DNA from: Peptococcaceae bacterium
GTDB taxonomy: Bacteria > Bacillota > Peptococcia > Peptococcales > Peptococcaceae
Assembly (NCBI GenBank): GCA_017383785.1
Contig: JAFNVD010000117.1
Span: 1-31,356, forward strand
Direction of reading: 5' to 3'
DNA: 31,356 nucleotides
The notes under the pieces were generated by a model. The model ran no database searches, was not told the origin of the DNA, and saw only the letters and a program-made list of their open reading frames with translations. Below are positions 4,988-14,557 of the stretch, in pieces. A program made the position numbers and the translations under genes. The first letter of the stretch is position 1; each line of letters starts with the position of its first letter.

Positions 4988-5023
4988 CTAATTAACACAG
5001 CGTAAATATAGAAGCATAAAACA

Positions 5024-5062
5024 AAAGAACCTGATTTGTATCTTTACAAAATCAGGTTCTTT
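5024..5062. terminator. Bidirectional intrinsic terminator
   Basis: AAAGAACCTGATTTGTA-TCTT-TACAAAATCAGGTTCTTT (one bulge) between convergent ORFs 4748-4987 and 5140-5499. Confidence 0.75.
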
Positions 5063-5139
5063 CTATTCTGTTGTAACTTGCATTTGGACAATATGCAATT
5101 GTAATAAATTCGAATATTTATACAGCTTTTGAGCAACTT

Positions 5140-5499
5140 TTACTCGATGCACATGTTGTTTACAAACATAGTGCTTACAGTAGTTTTGTGGTGTTGCAGT
5201 GTACTGATACGAGCTTCTAATGCATAGCCTTCGTCAGATGCTGCTTTGCGGTATTTTGCTTCTGCGATTTCAATTTCACGGTTCAGCGCTACAAGTTCCA
5301 GAATCAGCTGCTGTTTTGCTTCTTCTTCCGGCATTTCAGTACATTTTAACAGCTGTGCGGATTTAGTATCGCCTTTCAGTAATGCTTCTGCAATTTCAGC
5401 TTCGGATAATTCTACCGGTTGTGCTACTTTTGCAGATGGTGCCAGCAGCTCTTCTGTGGACGCTGCCAATGCTAATGCTTGAACATCTTGAAGATTCAT
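5140..5499 (-). CDS. Hypothetical helical/coiled-coil protein (119 aa)
   Basis: RBS AAGGGG, upstream TG-T-TATAAT on the minus strand, Ala/Glu/Leu-rich heptad-like sequence, host-like codons. Confidence 0.65.
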   Translation of the reverse strand: MNLQDVQALALAASTEELLAPSAKVAQPVELSEAEIAEALLKGDTKSAQLLKCTEMPEEEAKQQLILELVALNREIEIAEAKYRKAASDEGYALEARISTLQHHKTTVSTMFVNNMCIE

Positions 5500-5729
5500 A
5501 CGAAAAACCCCTTATCATAATTTTTATTCGACTCATGTTAGAGATGAGTTCATTATAACACATTTATAATAAAAATACAGTGCTATTTTATAAAAAATAT
5601 AAATTTTTTTTTGAATTTTATGATTGAATCAAATCGGAAAGTGGTTTGGAATAGTTTGGTTGATGGTATATTATGATTAAGAAAAGAAATTATACCGCAA
5701 GAAACTATCAATTCCCATAGCAATTTTGC

Positions 5730-5758
5730 TTGTATGTGCAGGGGATTGCTGATACAAT
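5730..5758 (+). promoter_or_regulatory. sigmaA-type promoter for the nitroreductase gene
   Basis: TTGTAT (5730-5735), 17 bp, TG-a-TACAAT (5753-5758). Confidence 0.6.
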
Positions 5759-5795
5759 ACAGTAGAAAGATAACTTGCAGAAAGGGGTAACAAAA

Positions 5796-6344
5796 ATGAA
5801 AAAAAGAGAATTAGAATATGAGTTGATGAAAGAAATCGAAGAACGTTATTCTACGATGCACTTTGGTGAAGGAGACGTAGCGGAAGAAGATTTGCGTGCT
5901 ATGTTACTGGCAGCAACACAGGCTCCATCGGCCTATAATGAACAGCCTTGGCGCTTTTATGTAGCAAAAACACAGCAGGATAAAGAGATGTTGATGGAAT
6001 ATATGTTGCCGGGGGAAAAAGAATGGATGATGCAGGCGCCGGTTTGGATTTTGTTGGCCGGTGATGTAGGTGATACCCACAATGGTTTATTTAATTACTG
6101 GGCATCTTTTGATGCAGGATGTGCATGGGGATTCTTAGCATTGGAAGCACAGCGTCGCGGCTATGTGACACATTGCATTGGTTCTTTAGACCGTGTGGAT
6201 TTACGTAATGAGTTTCAAAAAAATGAAAATATCGAGATTTATGGTCTTGTCGCTGTTGGTCGTCCGGCCGCACCGGAAGTGACTACAAAAGAAAAAGTAC
6301 CGTCAAGAAAATCTGTGAATGCTGTACAGTTGCGTCGAAAATAA
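5796..6344 (+). CDS. Nitroreductase-family flavoprotein
   Basis: Start at ATG 5796 (RBS AAGGGG). RYSTMHF, AATQAPSAYNEQPWRF, FDAGCAWGFLALEAQRRGYVTHCIG. Confidence 0.85.
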   Translation: MKKRELEYELMKEIEERYSTMHFGEGDVAEEDLRAMLLAATQAPSAYNEQPWRFYVAKTQQDKEMLMEYMLPGEKEWMMQAPVWILLAGDVGDTHNGLFNYWASFDAGCAWGFLALEAQRRGYVTHCIGSLDRVDLRNEFQKNENIEIYGLVAVGRPAAPEVTTKEKVPSRKSVNAVQLRRK

Positions 6345-6391
6345 TAAGTATTTCTTATTGAACGGATTTTTGCAAGGATAGTTAACTATGT

Positions 6392-6419
6392 TTGCATTTT
6401 TGTTCACAAATAGTACAAT
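6392..6419 (+). promoter_or_regulatory. Possible sigmaA promoter for the ArsR-family gene
   Basis: TTGCAT (6392-6397), 16 bp, TACAAT (6414-6419); spacing is suboptimal. Confidence 0.4.
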
Positions 6420-6451
6420 GAGCTGTTCAGTAGCAAATGGAGGGAATTGCC

Positions 6452-6799
6452 ATGGAGGAACAGTGGCAGTGCGAAGAATTTTGTGTGCATGATAAAGTCT
6501 TAGCTGAAATTGAACCAAAACGTATTTCAGAGGCACAAAGCCAGCAGACAGCAGAATTATTTAAGGCTTTGGGCGATGCAACAAGAATGAAAATTTTGTA
6601 TTATCTCTTGCAGAAAGAGCTTTGTGTATGTGATTTAACTGTGCTGGTAGGCGCCAGCCAATCAGCGGTTTCGCATCAGCTTCGTATTTTGCGTAATTTA
6701 CACATCGTGTATGGAAAAAAAGAGGGTAAGCAAGTCATTTATAGCATTTGCAACGATCATGTGCGTCGTCTTTTAGAAGAAGCATTGGCATTTTCGTAA
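6452..6799 (+). CDS. ArsR/SmtB-family metal-sensing repressor (CadC-like alpha3N site)
   Basis: Start at ATG 6452 (RBS GGAGGG). CEEFCVH, LFKALGDATRMKIL, ELCVCDL, SQSAVSHQLRILR, GKQVIYS. Confidence 0.9.
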   Translation: MEEQWQCEEFCVHDKVLAEIEPKRISEAQSQQTAELFKALGDATRMKILYYLLQKELCVCDLTVLVGASQSAVSHQLRILRNLHIVYGKKEGKQVIYSICNDHVRRLLEEALAFS

Positions 6800-6874
6800 T
6801 CTTCCTGCAATAAAATTCCTGTAAAAAATCGAAAGAAAAATATAAAAAGTTCGAATTTTCACATAGAAAAAGGA

Positions 6875-6904
6875 TTGCGGAAACCATAGGAAATAGTATA
6901 AAAT
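6875..6904 (+). promoter_or_regulatory. Possible sigmaA promoter of the hydrogenase operon
   Basis: TTGCGG (6875-6880) with TATAAA (6897-6902, 16 bp) or TAAAAT (6899-6904, 18 bp). Confidence 0.4.
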
Positions 6905-7068
6905 GATACTAGGCAGAATACTGCCTAAGTTATCCATAAATTATGAGGGCATCTGTTTTAACAGTACAGATACAGTATTCTGGGAACTGCGGATGTATTG
7001 AAAAAACAGCTGACTCATTCAATTTTTAGTAACACTTTTTCATTACTTTTATTTTTGAGGTGAATAAA

Positions 7069-8664
7069 ATGGAAAAACACAAAGAACAAGAAAACAAAGG
7101 CATGAGCAGACGCCGTTTTCTGAGTGTTATGGCAGGTGCTGGTGTTGTTGGTGCTGCAACAACTATGACCGGTTGCAGACCTGTCAGTGATCCAAGCGGT
7201 ACTGGCTGGCTGCCAAATCAGTATCGTAACGCAAGTGCGCAGCCTGTACAGGTAAAAGGTCGTGTGCCACTGGATCCAGCAAACGTATCCTTAGTACGTA
7301 ACGACGAAAAATGTATCCTGTGCGGTCAGTGCTTAGAAGCTTGCGAAAAAGTACAGAGCGTATTTGGTTACTATGAACTGCCTGTAATTGACGAATTTAT
7401 CTGCGTACATTGCGGTCAGTGTTCTCTGTGGTGCCCAACAGGCGCTATTGCAGAACGTAGCGATGTAGAAAACGTATGGAGAGCAATTCAGGACCCAGAA
7501 ACTGTAGTTGTTGTACAGACTGCTCCTGCTACACGCGTTGGTATCGGTGAAGAGTTCGGTATGGGCGCTGGTGCTTGGGCTGAAGGTCAGATGGTAACTG
7601 CTCTGCGTATGTTAGGCTTTGACGTAGTAGTTGACACCAACTTCAGTGCTGACTTAACTATTATGGAAGAAGGCTCCGAATTAGTAGAACGTGTAACTCA
7701 TGGTGGTGTACTGCCACAGATGACATCCTGCTGCCCTGGTTGGGTTAAATTCGTAGAATACTATTATCCAGAATTGATTCCAAACCTGTCTTCCGCTCGC
7801 TCCCCAATGATGATGCATGGTTCTACTCTGAAAACCTACAATGCACAGCAGCTGGGTGTAAGCTATGACAAAATTGTGAACGTTGCTATCATGCCTTGCG
7901 TAGCGAAAAAATTCGAAGCTAGCAGAGAACAGTTTGCTGGTTTAGAAGGCGGCGCTGGTAAATACTACAACGACGACACTGTAAAAGATATGGACTATGT
8001 ACTGAGCGTACGTGAACTGGCTGACATGATTCGTGAAAAACTGGATGTTGATTTCGCTAATCTGCCAGAAGGTCAGTACGACCAGATTGGTTCTACTGCT
8101 GGTTTAATCTTCGGTAACTCCGGTGGTGTTATGGAAGCGGCTGTACGTTCCGCATACACATTAATCACAGGTAATGAGCCGCCTGCAATGCTGTATGACT
8201 TACAGCCTGTACGTGGTCTGGAAGGCATCAAATATGCATCTGTTCCTGTTCCAGGTGTAGGCGAAGTAAAAGTTGCAGTTGTATCCGGTTTGGCAAATGC
8301 ACGTAAAGTATGTGAAGATATCAAAGCGGGTAAAGCGGACTTCCACTTCTTAGAAGTGATGGCTTGCCCAGGCGGATGTATTTCCGGCGGCGGTCAGCCA
8401 AAAACTGCAGTACCTCCACAAGATTGGGTACGTGAAGCACGTACAGCTACCATGTATAATCATGATAAAGCTGGTGTAATCAATGGTTCTGCTGCTGGTG
8501 CAGGTCAGATGACTACCGAAAAAGGTGTACTGAACCTGAGCCACAAAAACCCACAGATTGATGAAATCTACAAAGAATTCTTACATGAACCATTAAGCCA
8601 TCTGGCACATGACCTGTGTCATACCCATTATGTAGACAGATCTGATTCTTTAATCAGAAAATAA
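7069..8664 (+). CDS. hydA: Tat-exported single-chain [FeFe]-hydrogenase catalytic subunit (2x[4Fe-4S] + H-cluster + fused small-subunit domain)
   Basis: Start at ATG 7069 (RBS GAGGTG). SRRRFL Tat motif; CILCGQCLEAC and CVHCGQCSLWCP ferredoxin motifs; H-cluster signatures TSCCPGW, MPCVAKKFE, EVMACPGGCISGGGQP; C-terminal SHKNP...AHDLCHTHY. Confidence 0.96.
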   Translation: MEKHKEQENKGMSRRRFLSVMAGAGVVGAATTMTGCRPVSDPSGTGWLPNQYRNASAQPVQVKGRVPLDPANVSLVRNDEKCILCGQCLEACEKVQSVFGYYELPVIDEFICVHCGQCSLWCPTGAIAERSDVENVWRAIQDPETVVVVQTAPATRVGIGEEFGMGAGAWAEGQMVTALRMLGFDVVVDTNFSADLTIMEEGSELVERVTHGGVLPQMTSCCPGWVKFVEYYYPELIPNLSSARSPMMMHGSTLKTYNAQQLGVSYDKIVNVAIMPCVAKKFEASREQFAGLEGGAGKYYNDDTVKDMDYVLSVRELADMIREKLDVDFANLPEGQYDQIGSTAGLIFGNSGGVMEAAVRSAYTLITGNEPPAMLYDLQPVRGLEGIKYASVPVPGVGEVKVAVVSGLANARKVCEDIKAGKADFHFLEVMACPGGCISGGGQPKTAVPPQDWVREARTATMYNHDKAGVINGSAAGAGQMTTEKGVLNLSHKNPQIDEIYKEFLHEPLSHLAHDLCHTHYVDRSDSLIRK

Positions 8665-8681
8665 AAAGGGAGGTATGAATA

Positions 8682-9509
8682 ATGTCTAGTAAAGTTACAG
8701 ATCAGAAAAGCGTTCTGGTTGACTTAACAAAATGCGTTGGTTGCGGTAGCTGTACAGTTGCCTGCAAATTGTGGAACGCACAGAGTTTCCAGAATCCTCA
8801 GACAAATGAATATGAAAATGCTCACGGTGTAGATGTACAGCTGGATAGCAATACATGGACCACTGTAGAACATAAAAAAGTAAACAAAGATGGTCAGGAA
8901 GTATGGCGTTTTGTAAAACGTCAGTGCATGCACTGCCTGGAACCAGCATGTTCCTCCGTATGCTTTGCACACGCATTCCACCAGACAGAACAGGGTGCTG
9001 TACAGTACGACCCATCTGTATGCGTAGGTTGCCGTTACTGCATGATCGCATGTCCATTCGACATTCCTAAATATGAATGGGAAAAAGTACTGCCATCCGT
9101 AATGAAATGTCAGTTCTGCTCTTCCAAACTGGAAGATGGCGAAGCTCCTGCATGTGCAAGCGTATGCCCAACAGATGCTCTGATGTTCGGCAACAGAGAT
9201 GAACTGCTGGCAAAAGCACATGAAATCATTAACAACGATAGCAGATATCTGAACCATGTATATGGTGAAAAAGAAGTTGGCGGTACCAGCTGGCTGTATA
9301 TCTCCGACGTAGACTTTGGCGAACTGGGCTTCCCAACCAACCTGCCGGAAAAATCTATTCCGGAAAATGTACACGGTTTCACTCGCTTCACAATTCCAAT
9401 TTTCGCAGTAGGTGCTGCAGCATGGACAGGTGTAAGCCTGTATGCAAAACGTCGTCATGCAGTTGCGCATGAAGGCCACCATGCTGAAGAACACCACGAA
9501 GAAGCGTAA
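8682..9509 (+). CDS. HybA/FdnH-like 4x[4Fe-4S] electron-transfer subunit with C-terminal membrane anchor
   Basis: CVGCGSCTVAC, CMHCLEPACSSVC, CVGCRYCMIACPF, KCQFC...PACASVCP; terminal hydrophobic helix FTIPIFAVGAAAWTGVSLY followed by KRR; RBS GGAGGT. Confidence 0.92.
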   Translation: MSSKVTDQKSVLVDLTKCVGCGSCTVACKLWNAQSFQNPQTNEYENAHGVDVQLDSNTWTTVEHKKVNKDGQEVWRFVKRQCMHCLEPACSSVCFAHAFHQTEQGAVQYDPSVCVGCRYCMIACPFDIPKYEWEKVLPSVMKCQFCSSKLEDGEAPACASVCPTDALMFGNRDELLAKAHEIINNDSRYLNHVYGEKEVGGTSWLYISDVDFGELGFPTNLPEKSIPENVHGFTRFTIPIFAVGAAAWTGVSLYAKRRHAVAHEGHHAEEHHEEA

Positions 9510-9529
9510 GAAAGGGAGGTCATCATAAT

Positions 9530-10729
9530 ATGGAATGGATTTTCAAAAGCAAAACAGGTAGATGGAACCTGAGATTGACCCCAATCAGACTGGGCATGCT
9601 GGCATTCGTAGCATTCTCCCTGGTTATGATTTTAGCAAGATACTATGCAGGTCTGGGTTACTGGACCAACTTGAGCGACTTAATGCCATGGGGTGCATGG
9701 ATTGGCGCTGACATGAACGTAATCGCACTGGCTGGTGCTGGTTTCAGTACCGCTATTATTACCCACATTTTCCATGCGGAAAAATACAATCCAGTATCCA
9801 GAAGATGCTTACTGCTGAGCTTTATCGGTTACATCCTGGTACTGTTAATCCTGATCGTTGAAATCGGTCGTTGGGATAATTTCTGGACACCATTCGTTTC
9901 TCCTGGTATCCACTCTCCAATGTTTGAAGTTTACATGTGTATCGTAGCTTACCTGGTTCTGCAGGTAATCGAACTGGTTGAAGTTGGTACTGAAAAAGTG
10001 GCTCCAAAATTCCACAAAAAAATGCAGCCTTTCATGCAGATTGTATTCATCGCTGCATGTACCGTTCCTCTGGGTCATCAGGCTTCCCTGGGTTCTTTGT
10101 ACTTAGCAATGCCTGCTAAACTGGATCCAATTTGGGCTACACAGATGATGCCTTGGTTATTCGTACTGTCTGCATTCTTCGTAGGTCCTTGCGTAGCAAC
10201 TGTAGAATACATTTGGACCAACAGCCGTTACAAAATGAAAGTTGATACCGGTATGCTGTATGGTCTGTGCCGTATCTCTGCAGTACTGATGGCTGTATAC
10301 TTTGTACTGAAATGTGCTGACCTGGTAATGCGTGGTCAGGTAGGTAACGTATTTGCTTTCAACTTCGTAAGCAACATGTTCCTGTTAGAAATGCTGTGCC
10401 TGTGCATTATCCCAATCGTAATCCACCTGATTCCATTTGGTAGAACACAGGGTGGTCTGCTGACATTTGGTATCGTAGGTATGATTGGTTTGGTACTGAC
10501 CCGTCTGAACGTAGTGTTCACAGGTATGAGTGCACACATCGGTGCTTTGGGCGGCAGCTACATTCCATCCTTCATGGAAATCGTATCTACCATCGGTCTG
10601 TTCTTCTTAGCATTCTTAGCTTACATGTGGGTAACTGAAAACTTCCCATTCTTCTTTGGTGTAGCTGGCGATGCAGAAGAAGATAAAGAAAACCCATCTG
10701 CTAGCGGTTACAACCAGGCTGTTCTGTAA
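9530..10729 (+). CDS. NrfD/PsrC-family (HybB/HmcC-like) polytopic membrane subunit, putative quinone-reactive module
   Basis: About 10 hydrophobic segments; PWGAWIG, ALAGAGF, EIGRW, HSPMFEV, HQASLGSL motifs; RBS GGAGGT. Confidence 0.9.
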   Translation: MEWIFKSKTGRWNLRLTPIRLGMLAFVAFSLVMILARYYAGLGYWTNLSDLMPWGAWIGADMNVIALAGAGFSTAIITHIFHAEKYNPVSRRCLLLSFIGYILVLLILIVEIGRWDNFWTPFVSPGIHSPMFEVYMCIVAYLVLQVIELVEVGTEKVAPKFHKKMQPFMQIVFIAACTVPLGHQASLGSLYLAMPAKLDPIWATQMMPWLFVLSAFFVGPCVATVEYIWTNSRYKMKVDTGMLYGLCRISAVLMAVYFVLKCADLVMRGQVGNVFAFNFVSNMFLLEMLCLCIIPIVIHLIPFGRTQGGLLTFGIVGMIGLVLTRLNVVFTGMSAHIGALGGSYIPSFMEIVSTIGLFFLAFLAYMWVTENFPFFFGVAGDAEEDKENPSASGYNQAVL

Positions 10730-10769
10730 GAACTGCTTTGTAAAAATACATCATAGCAATATGATAAGC

Positions 10770-10803
10770 AAAGAGCGTTTCTCGTTTGAGAAACGCTCTT
10801 TTT
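10770..10803. terminator. Bidirectional terminator shared by the hydrogenase operon and sigG
   Basis: Perfect stem AAAGAGCGTTTCTC-GTTT-GAGAAACGCTCTTT followed by a T-run. Confidence 0.85.
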
Positions 10804-10810
10804 GTTGTGG

Positions 10811-11587
10811 TTATACATATTTACGCATACTTTGCAATGCACCTTTTTCTAATCGGCTAACCTGTGCTTGTGAGATTGCGATTTCATCAGCTACTTCCAT
10901 CTGTGTTTTGCCTTGAAAAAAGCGCATATCAATAATGCATTGTTCTCTGGGGCTTAATCGATCTAATGCTTGTTGAATTGCAATATTCTCTAACCAATGA
11001 AAGTCTGTATTTTTTGTGTCTTTCACTTGGTCCATGATATAGATTGGATCGCCACCGTCATTATAGATAGGGTCATATAAAGATACAGGTTCCTGAATAG
11101 CATCTAATGCAGCGCATACTTCTTCTATAGGCAATTCTAGTTCTTTTGCTATTTGATCAATACCGGGCTCTTTGCCGAGCTGTGCGGTCAGATACTCTCG
11201 GATTTGTAATGCTTTATATGCAATATCTCGCAATGAACGACTTACACGCATAGGTGTATTATCGCGCAGATATCGACGAACTTCCCCTAATATCATTGGC
11301 ACAGCGTAAGTAGAAAAACGTACTTCAAATTTTAAGTCGAAATTATCGATTGCTTTCATTAAACCAATGCAGCCCACTTGAAACAAATCATCTGCATTCT
11401 CATTTCTGTTGCTAAACCGTTGAATTACACTCAGCACCAAGCGTAAATTACCGTAAATCAGCTGTTCTCTAGCATCCTTGTCACCATTTTGATATTGCCG
11501 AAACAATACAAGCATTTGCTCGCTATTAAGTATCGGCAGCTTTGAGGTATCTACACCACAGATTTCTACCTTGCACAAATAAGCCAT
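10811..11587 (-). CDS. sigG: Late forespore RNA polymerase sigma factor SigG
   Basis: Diagnostic N-terminus KVEICGVDTSKLP, GNLRLVLSVIQRF, DDLFQVGCIGLMKAIDNFD, FSTYAVPMILGEVRRYLRDN, EPVSLYDPIYNDGGDPIYIMDQV; RBS GGAGGG. Confidence 0.96.
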   Translation of the reverse strand: MAYLCKVEICGVDTSKLPILNSEQMLVLFRQYQNGDKDAREQLIYGNLRLVLSVIQRFSNRNENADDLFQVGCIGLMKAIDNFDLKFEVRFSTYAVPMILGEVRRYLRDNTPMRVSRSLRDIAYKALQIREYLTAQLGKEPGIDQIAKELELPIEEVCAALDAIQEPVSLYDPIYNDGGDPIYIMDQVKDTKNTDFHWLENIAIQQALDRLSPREQCIIDMRFFQGKTQMEVADEIAISQAQVSRLEKGALQSMRKYV

Positions 11588-11650
11588 GTCAGTCCCTCCG
11601 AATGCGTCATCATGTAAAAAGTTTTTCTGTTTGATTTACTTTGATGAGTT

Positions 11651-11680
11651 AATTATTGCCTCAAAGAGTTTGATTTATAC
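11651..11680 (-). promoter_or_regulatory. sigmaF-type (forespore) promoter of sigG
   Basis: Minus strand GTATA-N15-GGCAATAATT matches the B. subtilis sigmaF consensus GYATA-N15-GGnrAnAnTw at every position. Confidence 0.75.
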
Positions 11681-11726
11681 GGCTTAACAAAATGTAACAC
11701 TTGTCAGAATGTATTCACACAACAAA

Positions 11727-11760
11727 AGAGGCTATTGTCAATAAATTGACAATAGCCTCT
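11727..11760 (-). terminator. Intrinsic terminator after the UPF0182 gene
   Basis: 16-bp perfect arms AGAGGCTATTGTCAAT / ATTGACAATAGCCTCT, followed by TTTGTTG on the minus strand. Confidence 0.82.
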
Positions 11761-11779
11761 GTGTTGTTATGCAGTTGAT

Positions 11780-14557
11780 TTATACAGTAATATCTGATAA
11801 TTCGTCAATGTTTTCTGCATCGTTTGTACTTTCACTAGTTGAACTTGTTTTGCCCAGCTGATTGATAGCTTTTTCTAAAGCATCCATGTATTTACCGTAA
11901 TCAGCCCAGTTGCCTTGCTGTGCAGACAGTTTGGCATTCTGATATGCAGTTTTGATTTGCTGTACGGCTTCGTCATAGGTTACAGTAGAATCATTTTCTG
12001 CTGGATTGGAAGTAGACGGTGTATCGCCAGGACCGGCAGATTCAAAATTAGTTCCAAATAACTGGCTTAATGCTTCATCCAGTGTTTTGGCCATCACGAT
12101 TTGATCTTTATAAGCTACGACGATACGTACCACTTCCGGTAGACTATTTTCATTGTTGGTAGTCAAGTAAATCGGCTCGATATACAGAATGGAGTTCTGA
12201 ATCGGAATAACCAGAAGATTACTGCGGATTACAGAAGAACCTTGCTGATCCCATAAGTTCAGATTCTGAGAAATTTCAGAGTCATTACTGATACGAGCTT
12301 CTACTTGTGCTGGACCATAAATGGTGGACTGTTTCGGGAATTTGAACAGTACTAGCTTACCATAGTTTTCATCGTCGTTACGTGCTGCCAGCCAAGCTAC
12401 CATATTGTTTTTCTCGGTTGGTGTAAATGGACGAATCAGCAAGAACTCAGTAGCATCGGAACCAGGCAGGCTCATATTTACAAAGTATGGTTCCATCTGT
12501 TCAATCTGATTGCCATAAATTTCGTTGGCAATGCTCCACACGTCTTCTTTATTGTAGAAAACAGTCGGATCTTTCATGTGATAACGCTGATAGATTTCAG
12601 TCTGTACTTCAAATAAAGTAGTGGAGTATTTCAGATGTTCACGAATATTCTGAGGCATTTCATCCAGTGTCAAGAATAAGCCAGGGAATACTTTGGCATA
12701 ACTCTGTACCAGTGGGTCACTATTATCCACAATGTAGAATTTTGTTTCACCATCATATGCATTTACAGTTACTTTTACAGAGTTACGTACATAGTTTTGA
12801 CCGTAGAACGGAGATGCAGTGTTGGAAATTCTCGCAGCATACGGATATTTGTTGCTAGAGGTGTATGCATCAATTACCCAAACCAAATTACCATTGTCAA
12901 TTACCAGATATGGATCTTGATCAAAGGTTAGGAATGGTGCAATTTTTTCTACGCGGTCTAAAATATTACGGTTCAACAGGATTTTACTATCACTGTTGAT
13001 TAAGTTAGAAAACAAAATTTTGTAGTTAGCACGATCCAGTGCGAACAGTGCTTTGTTGCCCACGGTCATATTGATACCGGCATCGCCTGCGTACTGAGTT
13101 TGTGCATTGGTATCACCGGTTGGATAGTCAAATTCCGGCTCTTTGGTATTTACAATAACATAATCGTTGGTTAGCTGACCAAAATAAATTTCCGGACGAG
13201 TAATCATCAATTCCTCAACGGAAGTAGTAGGAGGAATGTTTTCTACCCACATTTCCGGCTGACCCTGTGTAGTTACTTTGTTTACAGGCGTAACAACTGC
13301 ACCGTAGCCATGGGTGTATTTCAGATATTTATTAACCCAAGTTTGTGCAGAAACATCCAGACTGTTCTGGTCTAATTCACGAGCAGACAGATAAACCTGT
13401 TGCTGTGCACCATCGATATTATAGCGGTCAATGTCAACGTCTACAAATTTGTAGTACAAACGCATACTCTGCAGTTGATTGAATACAGTGATGGTTGGGC
13501 GATAGTCAATCAAACGAATGTTATTGATGGTGTCCATTTCATCTTTTAAATCGGATGCAGTTAACACACCGTCACCGCTAAATTGTACTTCGGTAATCTG
13601 ATCTAAACCATAAGCTTTATTGGTCATTTCGATGTTGTTAGAGATATAAGGCTGTTCTTTATGAATTTCAGCAGGGTTTACGATAAAGTTTTGGACAGTA
13701 CCTTGTGCCACACCGCCAATTACCAAAATCCCAATCAATAGTACAGGACCGAGAGATGCAATACGAGCGCTTTTCTTTTTCAAGCCTACCAGTAAAGTGA
13801 TAGCGGTAATTACGCAAGCGATACTAGCCAGATTGTACATTGGTAAGGTAACCTTTAAGTCAGTATAGCCTGCACCAAATACAGCACCATCTTGTGCATA
13901 CAGGAGATTAGCTCCGTTCAGTTGGAATCCAGCAATCATTAAAAGTACAAACGCAATGGCAAAATAAATAATACGTTTGCCCATAAGCTTAAAGCTGCGT
14001 TTGCTAAAGCCTTGCAAGTAGAACGTCATCAGCAAGTTGAACATAAAGATAACAGCCAGGAAGAAGAAAGCTAAGTAGTACACAGTTTCAAACAACGATA
14101 AATTAAAGAAGTAGAAACTGATATCACGGCCGAATACCGGATCTACTACATTGGCAGGTGTTTGTTCTAAAAACAGCAGAATATTCTGCCACAATGCAGT
14201 AGCGGAAATCCATCCCGCAAACAACCCTAGAAACAGTGATGGAATCAATGCTAGTACACGTTTTCCCGTTTTCTTTTCCGGTACATTGATGACGGTGTCA
14301 TCTTCTACTTTTACTTCTGGCTGATACTTGGTACTTACCAGCAGTGTGAAGTAGGATAGCAAAAATACCATAAGAAATACCGCAGCACCTACTGCAAATT
14401 TGGCAAATGTGAATTTTAAGAATACCGGTGCATAGCCAATTTCGGAGAACCACAGATAATCGGTGGCAAAATGTGCAATCTGCGGACCGAATACCACTAG
14501 AACAGCAATGATTGCAATCAGCAAACCGGCTTTGCCCAGGTTGGCAAGAAATTTCAA
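11780..14557 (-). CDS. UPF0182-family membrane protein
   Basis: TTG start with GGAGG RBS; N-terminal multi-TM region with DYLWFSEIGY, DPVFGRDISFYFF, GAGYTD; large soluble domain with YTHGYG, PEIYFG, DPYLVI, WVIDAYT, NYVRNSVK, IYGPAQV, NLLVIPI. Confidence 0.9.
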   Translation of the reverse strand: MKFLANLGKAGLLIAIIAVLVVFGPQIAHFATDYLWFSEIGYAPVFLKFTFAKFAVGAAVFLMVFLLSYFTLLVSTKYQPEVKVEDDTVINVPEKKTGKRVLALIPSLFLGLFAGWISATALWQNILLFLEQTPANVVDPVFGRDISFYFFNLSLFETVYYLAFFFLAVIFMFNLLMTFYLQGFSKRSFKLMGKRIIYFAIAFVLLMIAGFQLNGANLLYAQDGAVFGAGYTDLKVTLPMYNLASIACVITAITLLVGLKKKSARIASLGPVLLIGILVIGGVAQGTVQNFIVNPAEIHKEQPYISNNIEMTNKAYGLDQITEVQFSGDGVLTASDLKDEMDTINNIRLIDYRPTITVFNQLQSMRLYYKFVDVDIDRYNIDGAQQQVYLSARELDQNSLDVSAQTWVNKYLKYTHGYGAVVTPVNKVTTQGQPEMWVENIPPTTSVEELMITRPEIYFGQLTNDYVIVNTKEPEFDYPTGDTNAQTQYAGDAGINMTVGNKALFALDRANYKILFSNLINSDSKILLNRNILDRVEKIAPFLTFDQDPYLVIDNGNLVWVIDAYTSSNKYPYAARISNTASPFYGQNYVRNSVKVTVNAYDGETKFYIVDNSDPLVQSYAKVFPGLFLTLDEMPQNIREHLKYSTTLFEVQTEIYQRYHMKDPTVFYNKEDVWSIANEIYGNQIEQMEPYFVNMSLPGSDATEFLLIRPFTPTEKNNMVAWLAARNDDENYGKLVLFKFPKQSTIYGPAQVEARISNDSEISQNLNLWDQQGSSVIRSNLLVIPIQNSILYIEPIYLTTNNENSLPEVVRIVVAYKDQIVMAKTLDEALSQLFGTNFESAGPGDTPSTSNPAENDSTVTYDEAVQQIKTAYQNAKLSAQQGNWADYGKYMDALEKAINQLGKTSSTSESTNDAENIDELSDITV

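What the first reader, a model, noticed from the sequence alone, without database searches (positions are those of the whole stretch)
7069..10729. Outward-facing, membrane-bound [FeFe]-hydrogenase wired to a HybA/HybB-type quinone module
Seen: three tightly linked genes with strong RBSs and one terminator, encoding a Tat-signal FeFe catalytic subunit with intact H-cluster motifs, a 4x[4Fe-4S] TM-anchored subunit, and an NrfD-family membrane subunit. Known: HybA+HybB form the quinone-coupling module of the E. coli [NiFe] Hyd-2, and most Firmicute FeFe enzymes are cytoplasmic and H2-evolving or bifurcating. Inference: a respiratory H2-uptake complex in which an FeFe enzyme replaces the NiFe module, giving a spore-forming anaerobe an H2:quinone redox loop. 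I recall similar trimeric operons from Desulfotomaculum-type genomes, so the architecture may be annotated elsewhere, but I know of no biochemical characterisation of it. The hydEFG, tatAC and quinone biosynthesis genes are not in this window.
Basis: partly seen in the sequence, partly recalled or inferred. Interest (0 to 1): 0.85.

Follow-up and report, generated by a model that had tools for sequence, protein, structure and literature searches.

The report
Exported membrane-bound [FeFe] hydrogenase operon
Three genes of an uncultured gut Peptococcaceae bacterium encode an iron-only hydrogenase that is probably exported, lipid-anchored and docked on a quinone-linked membrane module, most likely feeding hydrogen electrons into sulfite respiration. 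Genome papers on related sulfate reducers already predict this enzyme type, but I found no biochemical study of it.

Summary
hydA (7069-8664), a 16-Cys Fe-S gene (8682-9509) and an NrfD-family gene (9530-10729) form a tight operon that ends at a 14-bp terminator.

HydA has all three H-cluster motifs and a twin-arginine signal ending in a Cys. That Cys is present in all 36 clade members inspected, which suggests a Tat-exported lipoprotein. The Fe-S and membrane subunits align end to end with E. coli HybA and HybB but score below the curated HybA/HybB cut-offs. The Fe-S subunit has no signal of its own, so it probably rides out with HydA, as FdnH does with FdnG.

The window's genome is a 77%-complete assembly. 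It or its genus relatives carry TatAC, HydEFG, MenA, DsrAB and DsrMKJOP. No [NiFe] hydrogenase or APS reductase was found. The operon is assembled at high depth in four gut metatranscriptomes in which the neighbouring sigG is silent.

The best reading is an outward-facing H2:menaquinone oxidoreductase feeding sulfite respiration. Direction and quinone coupling are inferred, not shown.

The architecture is already described in genome papers on Desulfotomaculum ruminis, D. gibsoniae and D. nigrificans. This scan has noted it in at least four other genomes. It is a new member of a known, biochemically unstudied kind.

The parts
6992..7068 (+). 5' leader of the operon (promoter not mapped)
   Evidence: A single 3775-nt metatranscriptome contig (run X7) spans 6992-10766. 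Other runs hold contigs that start further upstream, at 6653 and 6204. The ribosome-binding site GAGGTG lies 7 nt before the ATG at 7069.
7069..8664 (+). hydA: Tat-signal [FeFe] hydrogenase catalytic subunit, M2 type with a fused C-terminal small-subunit domain
   Evidence: Pfam Fe_hyd_lg_C 9e-87 and Fe_hyd_SSU 7e-16. TIGR02512 group A at 460 bits, above its 406 cut-off. H-cluster motifs at 219, 275 and 429, and two [4Fe-4S] motifs at 82 and 112. The nearest solved chains are the bifurcating HydA1 (8a6t) and the Desulfovibrio periplasmic enzyme (1hfe, 8ryh).
7069..7176 (+). Twin-arginine signal peptide ending in a lipobox-like M-T-G-C (Cys36)
   Evidence: The RRRFLS motif, a hydrophobic stretch and x-[STA]-G-C are present in all 36 clade members inspected. 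Many carry the canonical L-[STA]-G-C. Lgt and LspA are present in the genus.
8682..9509 (+). Fe-S subunit with four [4Fe-4S] motifs, HybA/HmcB/FdnH-like, with a C-terminal tail anchor and no signal peptide
   Evidence: HmcB 1.7e-79 and HybA 1.8e-67, both below their equivalog cut-offs. It is 31% identical to E. coli HybA from HybA residue 39 to the C-terminal helix. It has 16 Cys. The nearest solved chain is FdnH, 1kqf_B.
9530..10729 (+). NrfD-family integral membrane subunit, HybB-like; the presumed menaquinone site
   Evidence: Pfam NrfD at 57 bits (cut-off 25.8). HybB model 1.1e-60, below its cut-off. It is 24% identical to E. coli HybB over 373 residues. The AF2 model (pLDDT 77.7) matches ActC of Alternative Complex III at TM 0.70-0.73.
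10770..10801 (+). Intrinsic terminator, shared with the convergent sigG
   Evidence: A 14-bp stem with 6 G-C pairs, followed by a T-rich tail. The RNA contig of run X7 ends at 10766, and depth falls to 0 beyond about 10870.
6437..6799 (+). ArsR/SmtB-family regulator, a conserved upstream neighbour within the genus (a possible regulator; its link to the operon is not shown)
   Evidence: Pfam HTH_5 and NF033788 at 93.6 bits, above its cut-off. It lies upstream of hydA in 15 genus-level loci and in none of the distant cassette loci.

Best explanation
The operon most likely encodes a heterotrimeric [FeFe] hydrogenase on the outer face of the cytoplasmic membrane.

Assembly (inferred). HydA folds and receives its H-cluster in the cytoplasm from HydEFG. 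It binds the signal-less Fe-S subunit, and the pair is exported by TatAC. The HydA signal is then cut at Cys36, which is lipid-modified. The C-terminal helix of the Fe-S subunit is inserted as a tail anchor. Both subunits dock on the 10-helix NrfD/HybB-like subunit.

Electron path (inferred). H2 is oxidised outside the cell. Electrons pass through the two HydA clusters and the four clusters of the Fe-S subunit to menaquinone bound in the NrfD subunit. If the protons for quinone reduction come from the cytoplasmic side, as proposed for other NrfD-type modules, the step is electrogenic. Menaquinol is then re-oxidised by DsrMKJOP, which reduces the DsrC trisulfide made by DsrAB. Overall, H2 would drive sulfite respiration.

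Shown here: gene content, motifs, homology, synteny, the genomic partners and in vivo transcription. Inferred: topology, lipidation, co-export, quinone coupling and direction of catalysis.
For: - Intact catalytic motifs and membership of [FeFe] group A.
- The Tat motif and the lipobox Cys are present in 36 of 36 clade members inspected.
- The Fe-S subunit aligns with HybA only after the HybA signal peptide. Its nearest solved relative is FdnH, a known Tat hitch-hiker with a tail anchor.
- The NrfD subunit aligns end to end with HybB and folds like ActC.
- The gene order hydA - Fe-S - nrfD is conserved in the genus, other Peptococcaceae, Gracilibacteraceae, Holophaga, Desulforamulus ruminis and Desulfitobacterium dehalogenans.
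- Elsewhere in the phylum the same Fe-S/NrfD pair follows Tat-signal molybdopterin (formate-dehydrogenase-like) subunits and, in one locus, a [NiFe] hydrogenase. It therefore behaves as a swappable membrane coupling module.
- Genomic partners: TatAC, HydE, HydF, HydG, MenA, Lgt and LspA.
- DsrK, J, O, P and M and DsrA all score above their curated cut-offs in the own genome. DsrMKJOP is an experimentally shown menadiol:DsrC-trisulfide oxidoreductase (PMC10861901).
- No [NiFe] hydrogenase was found in 15 genus genomes.
- The operon is assembled at 12-65x word depth in four gut metatranscriptomes, while sigG reads 0 and the gene beyond it reads 2-6.
- From established values (my own knowledge): H2/H+ at about -414 mV against menaquinone at about -74 mV makes uptake strongly favourable at gut H2 levels.
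Against: - No biochemical data exist for any member of this enzyme type that I could find.
- The own assembly is 77% complete and lacks tatC, hydE, hydG and lspA. It holds only a fragment of a UbiA-family gene.
- MenB and MqnA were not found in five genus genomes, three of them at least 94% complete. Menaquinone would then depend on a salvaged precursor.
- Position -3 of the lipobox is Met here, not the usual Leu, Val or Ile.
- E. coli Hyd-2, which uses the homologous module, is reported to be reversible (my own knowledge).
- Contig depths are a poor measure of expression (tool caveat).
Confidence: 0.62

Rival explanations
1. The complex has the same architecture but works mainly in reverse, or as a two-way valve. 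Menaquinol from an organic electron donor would be oxidised and protons reduced to H2 outside the cell, driven by the proton-motive force. This is what has been proposed for the externally oriented, quinone-linked enzymes of Syntrophomonas wolfei.
For: S. wolfei encodes an externally oriented [FeFe] hydrogenase, HYD-2, predicted to be linked to the menaquinone cycle. A membrane-associated hydrogenase activity band was identified as its catalytic subunit Swol_1925 (PMC3582634). [FeFe] enzymes are generally good H2 producers, and E. coli Hyd-2 can run backwards (my own knowledge). Nothing in the sequence fixes the direction.
Against: Making H2 from menaquinol is strongly uphill unless H2 is kept very low, and animal guts are rich in H2. 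The genome carries a menaquinol sink (DsrMKJOP and DsrAB) and several cytoplasmic [FeFe] hydrogenases that could make H2. There is no [NiFe] uptake enzyme to do the opposite job.
Confidence: 0.18
2. The membrane module is not a quinone reductase. The NrfD subunit would serve only as an anchor or proton path. Electrons from HydA and the Fe-S subunit would pass directly to another outward-facing partner such as DsrJ/DsrO, or across the membrane in the manner of Hmc.
For: The best NCBIfam match of the Fe-S subunit is HmcB, and the NrfD subunit also matches HmcC. Each genus genome tested holds only one other NrfD protein, DsrP. De novo DHNA synthesis genes were not found.
Against: Both Hmc scores lie far below their cut-offs (267 against 420; 155 against 550). 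No HmcA, HmcE or HmcF-like genes sit in the operon. The membrane subunit matches HybB better than HmcC (1e-60 against 4e-45). MenA is conserved in the complete relatives. The same module serves formate-dehydrogenase-like and [NiFe] partners elsewhere, as a general quinone coupler would.
Confidence: 0.1
3. The enzyme is not functional or not exported in this organism. It would be a cytoplasmic or immature hydrogenase, because the assembly shows no Tat system and no complete maturase set.
For: tatC, hydE and hydG were not found in the own assembly. Desulfitobacterium hafniense DCB-2 is reported to lack [FeFe] maturases (PMC9888536). One 99%-complete genus member, G010, also lacks hits to HydE and HydG.
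Against: The assembly is only 77% complete. The 97%-identical relative G003 has tatC, hydE and hydG. hydF is present in the own genome. All catalytic and signal motifs are intact and conserved. The operon is transcribed in gut samples.
Confidence: 0.04

Closest known systems
'Membrane-associated' Tat [FeFe] hydrogenase of Desulfotomaculum-type sulfate reducers: D. ruminis Desru_3431-3433 and Desru_0447-0445, D. gibsoniae Desgi_0926-0928, D. nigrificans DesniDRAFT_1068-1070 and 2001-2003. Known from genome papers only.
   Same: The gene order is the same three genes, with a Tat motif on the catalytic subunit and a 10-helix membrane subunit. HydA is 52-58% identical over its full length to the proteins of D. 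ruminis, D. nigrificans, Desulfosporosinus, Desulfitobacterium and Desulfonispora. The cassette was verified in D. ruminis and D. dehalogenans DNA. All fall in one HydA group in the tree. Papers: PMC3569383, PMC4148979, PMC4149029.
   Different: The host is an uncultured gut Peptococcaceae genus that reduces sulfite rather than sulfate. It has no AprA and no [NiFe] hydrogenase, it carries a full DsrMKJOP, and it has an extra orphan Tat-HydA paralog. The D. ruminis paper reads the signal as an uncleaved helix anchor. The invariant lipobox Cys found here argues for a lipoprotein instead.
E. coli hydrogenase 2 membrane module HybA/HybB (part of HybOCAB)
   Same: The Fe-S subunit is 31% identical to HybA, with four clusters and a C-terminal tail anchor. 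The membrane subunit is 24% identical to HybB from end to end. Neither membrane subunit is a b-type cytochrome.
   Different: The catalytic partner is a single-chain [FeFe] enzyme instead of the HybO/HybC [NiFe] pair. The Fe-S subunit lacks the Tat signal that HybA has. Scores fall below the curated equivalog cut-offs: 228 against 263 for HybA and 206 against 450 for HybB.
E. coli formate dehydrogenase-N subunit FdnH (PDB 1kqf chain B)
   Same: It is the closest solved relative of the Fe-S subunit (3.7e-35). It has four [4Fe-4S] clusters, no signal peptide of its own and a C-terminal transmembrane anchor (the FdnH biology is from my own knowledge). In the same phylum the same Fe-S/NrfD pair follows Tat-signal molybdopterin subunits.
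   Different: The membrane partner of FdnH is the dihaem cytochrome b FdnI, not an NrfD-type protein. The catalytic subunit is a molybdoenzyme.
Desulfovibrio periplasmic [FeFe] hydrogenase HydAB (PDB 1hfe)
   Same: It is an outward-facing M2-type [FeFe] enzyme. Desulfovibrionaceae and Desulfobulbaceae sequences are the next outgroup to the Tat-cassette clade after one long-branch paralog. The PDB match scores 326-362 bits.
   Different: There the Tat signal sits on a separate small subunit, the enzyme is soluble and it reduces cytochrome c3 (my own knowledge). Here the small-subunit domain is fused, the signal is at the N-terminus of the single chain with a lipobox, and the partners are a membrane Fe-S/NrfD pair.
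Syntrophomonas wolfei HYD-2 (catalytic subunit Swol_1925)
   Same: It is an externally oriented, membrane-associated [FeFe] hydrogenase predicted to be linked to the menaquinone cycle (PMC3582634).
   Different: Its membrane anchor is a b-type cytochrome, not an NrfD protein. The proposed physiological context is syntrophic H2 or formate production.

Membership tests
[FeFe] hydrogenase, group A (TIGR02512) | Score above the curated family cut-off | tested here: met
   460.1 bits against a cut-off of 405.95. It is not an A6 enzyme (519 against 765) and not a clostridial ferredoxin hydrogenase (376 against 900).
[FeFe] hydrogenase, group A (TIGR02512) | H-cluster binding motifs L1 (TSCCPxW), L2 (MPCxxKxxE) and L3 (ExMxCxxGCxxG) | tested here: met
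   Found at residues 219, 275 and 429.
[FeFe] hydrogenase, group A (TIGR02512) | Maturases HydE, HydF and HydG in the genome | tested here: inconclusive
   HydF is above its cut-off in the own genome and in 15 of 15 genus genomes. HydE and HydG were found in G003, G013 and other relatives but not in the 77%-complete own assembly or in G010.
Membrane-associated Tat [FeFe] hydrogenase of Desulfotomaculum and relatives | Twin-arginine motif on the catalytic subunit | tested here: met
   RRRFLS at residues 14-19, conserved in all clade members inspected.
Membrane-associated Tat [FeFe] hydrogenase of Desulfotomaculum and relatives | Three-gene order: hydA, Fe-S subunit, 10-helix membrane subunit | tested here: met
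   The membrane subunit model has the ActC-like NrfD fold.
Membrane-associated Tat [FeFe] hydrogenase of Desulfotomaculum and relatives | Orthology to the named Desulfotomaculum proteins | tested here: met
   HydA is 53-54% identical at 99-100% coverage to the D. ruminis and D. nigrificans proteins. All fall in one group in the tree, support 92/93.
Membrane-associated Tat [FeFe] hydrogenase of Desulfotomaculum and relatives | Extracytoplasmic location and membrane association of the enzyme | not testable with these tools
   This needs whole-cell against lysate viologen assays and cell fractionation.
E. coli Hyd-2 HybA/HybB module | HybA equivalog score (NF008134, at least 263 bits) and HybB equivalog score (NF008133, at least 450 bits) | tested here: not met
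   227.7 and 206.1 bits. The proteins are homologous but are not equivalogs.
E. coli Hyd-2 HybA/HybB module | Colinear full-length similarity, four [4Fe-4S] motifs and a C-terminal tail anchor | tested here: met
   BLASTP 4e-48 for HybA and 2e-32 for HybB, both end to end. 16 Cys.
E. coli Hyd-2 HybA/HybB module | The Fe-S subunit has its own Tat signal, and the catalytic partner is a [NiFe] enzyme | tested here: not met
   The alignment starts at HybA residue 39, and only 17 nt separate the gene from hydA. The partner is [FeFe], and no [NiFe] large subunit was found in the genus.
NrfD/PsrC family (PF03916) | Pfam gathering score, and the integral membrane fold of solved NrfD-like subunits | tested here: met
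   57.4 bits against 25.8. Foldseek gives TM 0.70-0.73 to ActC (6btm_C, 6f0k_C) at E about 1e-8 to 1e-9.
NrfD/PsrC family (PF03916) | Binds and reduces or oxidises a quinone | not testable with these tools
   MenA is present in the relatives. The binding site was not examined.
Tat-dependent bacterial lipoprotein | Lipobox [LVI][ASTVI][GAS]C at the end of the signal peptide | tested here: inconclusive
   This protein has M-T-G-C, with Met at position -3. Homologs have L, M, V or I at -3, and the [STA]-G-C part is present in 36 of 36 sequences. Lgt is partial in the own genome. Lgt and LspA are present in four relatives. Lipidation itself cannot be tested here.
Desulfovibrio-type periplasmic HydAB | A separate small subunit that carries the Tat signal; a soluble enzyme | tested here: not met
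   The small-subunit domain is fused at the C-terminus (Pfam Fe_hyd_SSU at residues 491-527). The signal is at the N-terminus of the single chain.

The most novel reading that the evidence does not exclude
In this [NiFe]-free gut genus, the lipid-anchored Tat [FeFe] hydrogenase on its HybAB-like module would be the main H2-uptake enzyme. It would reduce menaquinone built from a salvaged precursor, in an electrogenic step, and so drive DsrMKJOP/DsrAB sulfite respiration. These bacteria would then be an unrecognised guild of [FeFe]-dependent hydrogen-consuming sulfide producers in animal and human guts. The enzyme class would be the first Tat-dependent lipoprotein hydrogenase.
Probability: 0.45. 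Interest if true: 0.6.

Novelty: new member of a known kind. Interest (0 to 1): 0.4.

Why it matters
Textbooks assign respiratory H2 uptake to [NiFe] hydrogenases, and [FeFe] enzymes are usually treated as cytoplasmic H2 producers. This enzyme class would be an [FeFe] counterpart of E. coli Hyd-2. I found no biochemical study of it.

Here it sits in a widespread gut lineage, with relatives assembled from cattle, goat, sheep, deer, mouse and human gut metagenomes. No [NiFe] hydrogenase was found in that lineage, the genomes carry the full machinery for sulfite respiration, and the operon is transcribed in vivo. That makes the lineage a good place to ask which bacteria consume H2 and produce H2S in the gut. 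Cultured relatives such as Desulforamulus ruminis carry the cassette, and D. nigrificans has a close full-length HydA homolog and two published copies of the enzyme; these would be practical sources for a first purification.

Tried and rejected
- TatC, HydG, HydE and LspA gave no hit in the own assembly. I read this as incompleteness (77%), because the 97%-identical relative G003 has all four.
- A sequence search of the PDB with the NrfD subunit found nothing at E up to 0.01. A fold search of an AF2 model was needed.
- My simple Kyte-Doolittle scan at threshold 1.6 missed the Fe-S tail anchor and two of the membrane-subunit helices. I rely instead on the HybA/HybB alignments and the model.
- Pereira et al. 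2011 (Front Microbiol 2:69), which I recall as the first survey of this enzyme type, is not held in the library. I cite it from memory only.
- Membership of HmcBC was considered and rejected. The scores are far below the cut-offs and the other Hmc subunits are absent.
- Sulfate respiration was considered and rejected. No AprA scored above its cut-off in 15 genus genomes.
- A cytoplasm-facing orientation was considered and rejected. The Tat motif and lipobox Cys are present in all 36 clade sequences inspected.
- The Thermacetogenium paper concerns a [NiFeSe] enzyme and a formate dehydrogenase, not this enzyme type.
- No paper describing a lipoprotein [FeFe] hydrogenase was found.
- HydDB classification and a multimer structure prediction could not be run with these tools.

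Full report
WHAT IS IN THE SEQUENCE

Three + strand ORFs lie at 7069-8664, 8682-9509 and 9530-10729. The gaps between them are 17 and 20 nt. Each start has a GAGG/GGGAGG-type ribosome-binding site. A 14-bp-stem terminator at 10770-10801 follows and is shared with the convergent sigG. The surrounding genes are housekeeping and sporulation genes: a CCA/poly(A) polymerase-family gene, a SpoU methylase, UPF0182, spoIVA, thrC, hsp33, folC-like, rex-like, maf, radC and mreBC. The operon therefore stands alone.

THE THREE PROTEINS

HydA (531 aa)
- It matches Pfam Fe_hyd_lg_C at 9e-87 and carries a C-terminal Fe_hyd_SSU domain.
- It passes the NCBIfam [FeFe] group A model (460 bits, cut-off 406). It does not pass the A6 model or the clostridial ferredoxin-hydrogenase model.
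- It has the three H-cluster motifs and two ferredoxin-type cluster motifs.
- Its closest solved relatives are the bifurcating HydA1 and the Desulfovibrio periplasmic enzyme.

The Fe-S subunit (275 aa)
- It has 16 Cys in four cluster motifs.
- Its best family matches are HmcB (1.7e-79) and HybA (1.8e-67). Both fall below their equivalog cut-offs, and both begin at model position 34-35.
- It is 31% identical to E. coli HybA, from HybA residue 39 through the C-terminal helix. HybA residues 1-38 hold its own Tat signal.
- FdnH is the closest solved chain.

The membrane subunit (399 aa)
- It passes Pfam NrfD. Its best NCBIfam match is HybB at 1.1e-60, below the cut-off.
- It aligns with E. coli HybB from end to end at 24% identity.
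- An AF2 model built on 17 homologs (pLDDT 77.7, pTM 0.78) matches ActC and ActF, the NrfD-like subunits of Alternative Complex III, at TM 0.70-0.73.

EXPORT AND ANCHORING

The N-terminus of HydA carries RRRFLS, then a hydrophobic stretch, then M-T-G-C. I read the N-termini of 36 clade members: 25 from related loci and 11 from a sample of the phylum. Every one has the twin-arginine motif and x-[STA]-G-C, and many have the canonical L-[STA]-G-C. A conserved G-W-[LMV]-P-x-Q-Y segment follows.

This argues for a Tat-exported lipoprotein. It does not fit the uncleaved helix anchor suggested for D. ruminis (PMC3569383). Lgt and LspA are present in the genus.

The Fe-S subunit has no signal peptide, and there is no room for one. 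It most likely leaves the cell bound to HydA, and its C-terminal helix is then inserted as a tail anchor. This is known for FdnH with FdnG (my own knowledge; a 2024 paper on Tat-integrated tail anchors is PMC10924467, listed but not read).

THE ORGANISM AND ITS OTHER GENES

The window lies in a 1.32-Mb assembly of 234 contigs that is 77% complete. Its close relatives are "Peptococcaceae bacterium" MAGs from cattle, goat, sheep, deer, buffalo, mouse and human guts.

Found in the genus:
- TatC in four of four relatives tested, next to TatA in G013. It was not found in the own assembly.
- HydF in the own genome and in all 15 genus genomes.
- HydE and HydG in G003 (HydA 97% identical), G013 and other relatives, but not in G000 or G010.
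- MenA, well above its equivalog cut-off (412 against 277 bits) when scanned in G010; G013 and G007 carry a matching UbiA-family gene. The own genome holds only a fragment of a UbiA-family gene at a contig end.
- A contig of the own genome that encodes ResB and CcsB followed by DsrK, J, O, P and M, all above their equivalog cut-offs.
- DsrA above its cut-off, with a weaker dsrA-model hit (presumed DsrB) adjacent to it in the relatives, in the own genome and in all four relatives tested.

Not found in the genus:
- MenB and MqnA, in five genomes. Menaquinone probably depends on a salvaged precursor.
- AprA above its cut-off, in 15 genomes.
- A [NiFe] large subunit, in 15 genomes, seven of them at least 90% complete.

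Each genome tested has only two NrfD proteins: this one and DsrP. The genus therefore looks like a sulfite reducer, not a sulfate reducer, whose hydrogenases are all of the [FeFe] type.

DsrMKJOP has been shown to be a menadiol:DsrC-trisulfide oxidoreductase (PMC10861901). That gives a complete inferred chain: H2, then HydA/Fe-S/NrfD, then menaquinone, then DsrMKJOP, then DsrC/DsrAB, then sulfide.

EXPRESSION

Four animal-gut metatranscriptome runs from two studies hold 76-92% of the operon's sampled words. When their contigs were laid on 5000-13000:
- Word depth over 7136-10606 was 21-65, 12.4, 25-71 and 15-65 in the four runs.
- Depth over sigG (10874-11674) was at or near zero (at most 0.7) in all four.
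- Depth over the UPF0182 gene was 2-6.
- In run X7 a single 3775-nt contig runs from 6992 to 10766, that is, from the leader to the terminator.

The silent sigG argues against DNA carry-over. The tool warns that contig depth is a poor measure of expression and that a contig is not proof of a single transcript.

DISTRIBUTION AND RELATIONSHIPS

- The order hydA - Fe-S - nrfD is kept throughout the genus, in other Peptococcaceae, Gracilibacteraceae, unnamed Clostridia, and Holophaga and Holophagaceae.
- It is also kept in Desulforamulus ruminis and Desulfitobacterium dehalogenans.
- HydA homologs at 52-58% identity and full coverage occur in Desulfonispora, Desulfosporosinus, Desulfitobacterium, Desulfotomaculum, Desulforamulus and Syntrophobotulus.
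- In a sample of 401 genomes of the phylum, 42 (35 of 278 genera) have a close homolog of the membrane subunit.
- I fetched 20 of those loci. Eleven are full hydA cassettes with a Tat motif and lipobox. At least seven place the same Fe-S/NrfD pair after a Tat-signal molybdopterin (formate-dehydrogenase-like) subunit, which is split at an in-frame stop (probably selenocysteine) in several of them. One places it after a [NiFe] small and large subunit.

The maximum-likelihood tree has 70 rows and is midpoint-rooted for drawing only. All Tat-lipobox HydAs fall on one side of a branch (support 92/93). The next rows out are a long-branch paralog from the own genome and then a Desulfovibrionaceae/Desulfobulbaceae group.

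The genus also has a second Tat-lipobox HydA, about 61-63% identical, with no Fe-S or NrfD neighbour. In the tree it forms a clade (100/100) that is sister to the genus cassette clade (99/100).

COMPARISON WITH THE LITERATURE

Genome papers on three species each describe one or two copies of a three-gene "membrane-associated" [FeFe] hydrogenase with a Tat motif:
- D. ruminis (PMC3569383).
- D. gibsoniae (PMC4148979).
- D. nigrificans/carboxydivorans (PMC4149029). This paper also notes a 10-helix membrane subunit and the likeness to the extracellular formate dehydrogenase.

I recall that Pereira et al. 2011 surveyed this enzyme type, but the paper is not held. In nine full-text searches I found no purification or enzymology of it.

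The nearest studied analogue in function is S. wolfei HYD-2, which has a cytochrome b anchor. D. hafniense DCB-2 is reported to lack [FeFe] maturases, so not every carrier may make an active enzyme.

This scan has already followed up the same enzyme type in at least four other genomes, with the same conclusion.

VERDICT

The checks added four points:
- The Fe-S subunit has no signal of its own, so co-export with HydA is likely.
- HydA is probably a lipoprotein.
- The downstream electron sink is DsrMKJOP/DsrAB.
- The quinone probably depends on a salvaged precursor.

Direction and quinone coupling remain inferences. This is a new member of a known, biochemically unstudied kind. The points of interest specific to this window are the [NiFe]-free, sulfite-reducing gut host and the evidence that the operon is transcribed in vivo.

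Noticed in passing
G000:C177:1040-2563 (locus L004); orthologs in L034-L040; G010:C9 (L104:7178-8719, - strand): A second Tat-plus-lipobox [FeFe] HydA, about 61-63% identical, has no Fe-S or NrfD gene beside it. In G010 it lies next to a desulfoferrodoxin gene. In the tree it is a 100/100 clade, sister to the genus cassette HydA, which suggests a duplication within gut Peptococcaceae. Its electron acceptor is unknown. It could share the Fe-S/NrfD module or reduce DsrJ.
   Followed up: partly
G000:C20 (L105:2519-10386); G000:C58: The own genome encodes ResB and CcsB, then DsrK, J, O, P and M, all above their equivalog cut-offs. DsrA is on another contig. The DsrJOP part is reported to be absent from many Gram-positive sulfate reducers (PMC10861901), so a full DsrMKJOP in a Peptococcaceae is notable. 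No AprA was found in 15 genus genomes, which points to a sulfite or organosulfonate respirer.
   Followed up: partly
genus genomes G000-G014: No [NiFe] hydrogenase large subunit was found in any of 15 genomes, while each has 3-14 matches to HydA, not all of them separate genes. MenA is present, but MenB and MqnA were not found, which suggests dependence on a naphthoquinone precursor made by other gut bacteria.
   Followed up: partly
window 5775-6799: A nitroreductase-family gene and an ArsR/SmtB regulator lie directly upstream of hydA in all 15 genus-level loci examined, but in none of the distant cassette loci. The regulator has weak matches to BigR and TsoR-type regulators. Some RNA contigs run from inside the regulator gene into hydA (6653-7331 and 6204-7331). 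The regulator may control the operon or be co-transcribed with it.
   Followed up: partly
window 10811-11587 (- strand): sigG has zero contig depth in all four gut metatranscriptomes, while the neighbouring genes on both sides are covered. This is consistent with vegetative, non-sporulating cells in those samples.
   Followed up: no
G010 (99% complete): This genus member has HydF and eight matches to HydA, but no hit to HydE or HydG above their cut-offs. Either the adjacent hydE-hydG pair fell into an assembly gap, or this species matures its enzymes in another way. Unexplained.
   Followed up: no
L122, L124, L126, L129, L130, L134, L135 and L136 (phylum relatives): The same Fe-S/NrfD gene pair follows Tat-signal molybdopterin (formate-dehydrogenase-like) subunits, split at an in-frame stop (probably selenocysteine) in several of them, in at least seven loci. 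It follows a [NiFe] small and large subunit in one locus. The pair behaves as a modular membrane coupling unit used by three kinds of catalytic subunit.
   Followed up: partly
G013, G005, G008 and G004 (larger genomes of the genus): These genomes give between about 10 and 33 matches to the AprA model, mostly its N-terminal FAD-binding part, in open frames of about 560-600 aa. This looks like a large family of flavin reductase paralogs. The window's own small-genome species and its closest relative G003 have none.
   Followed up: no
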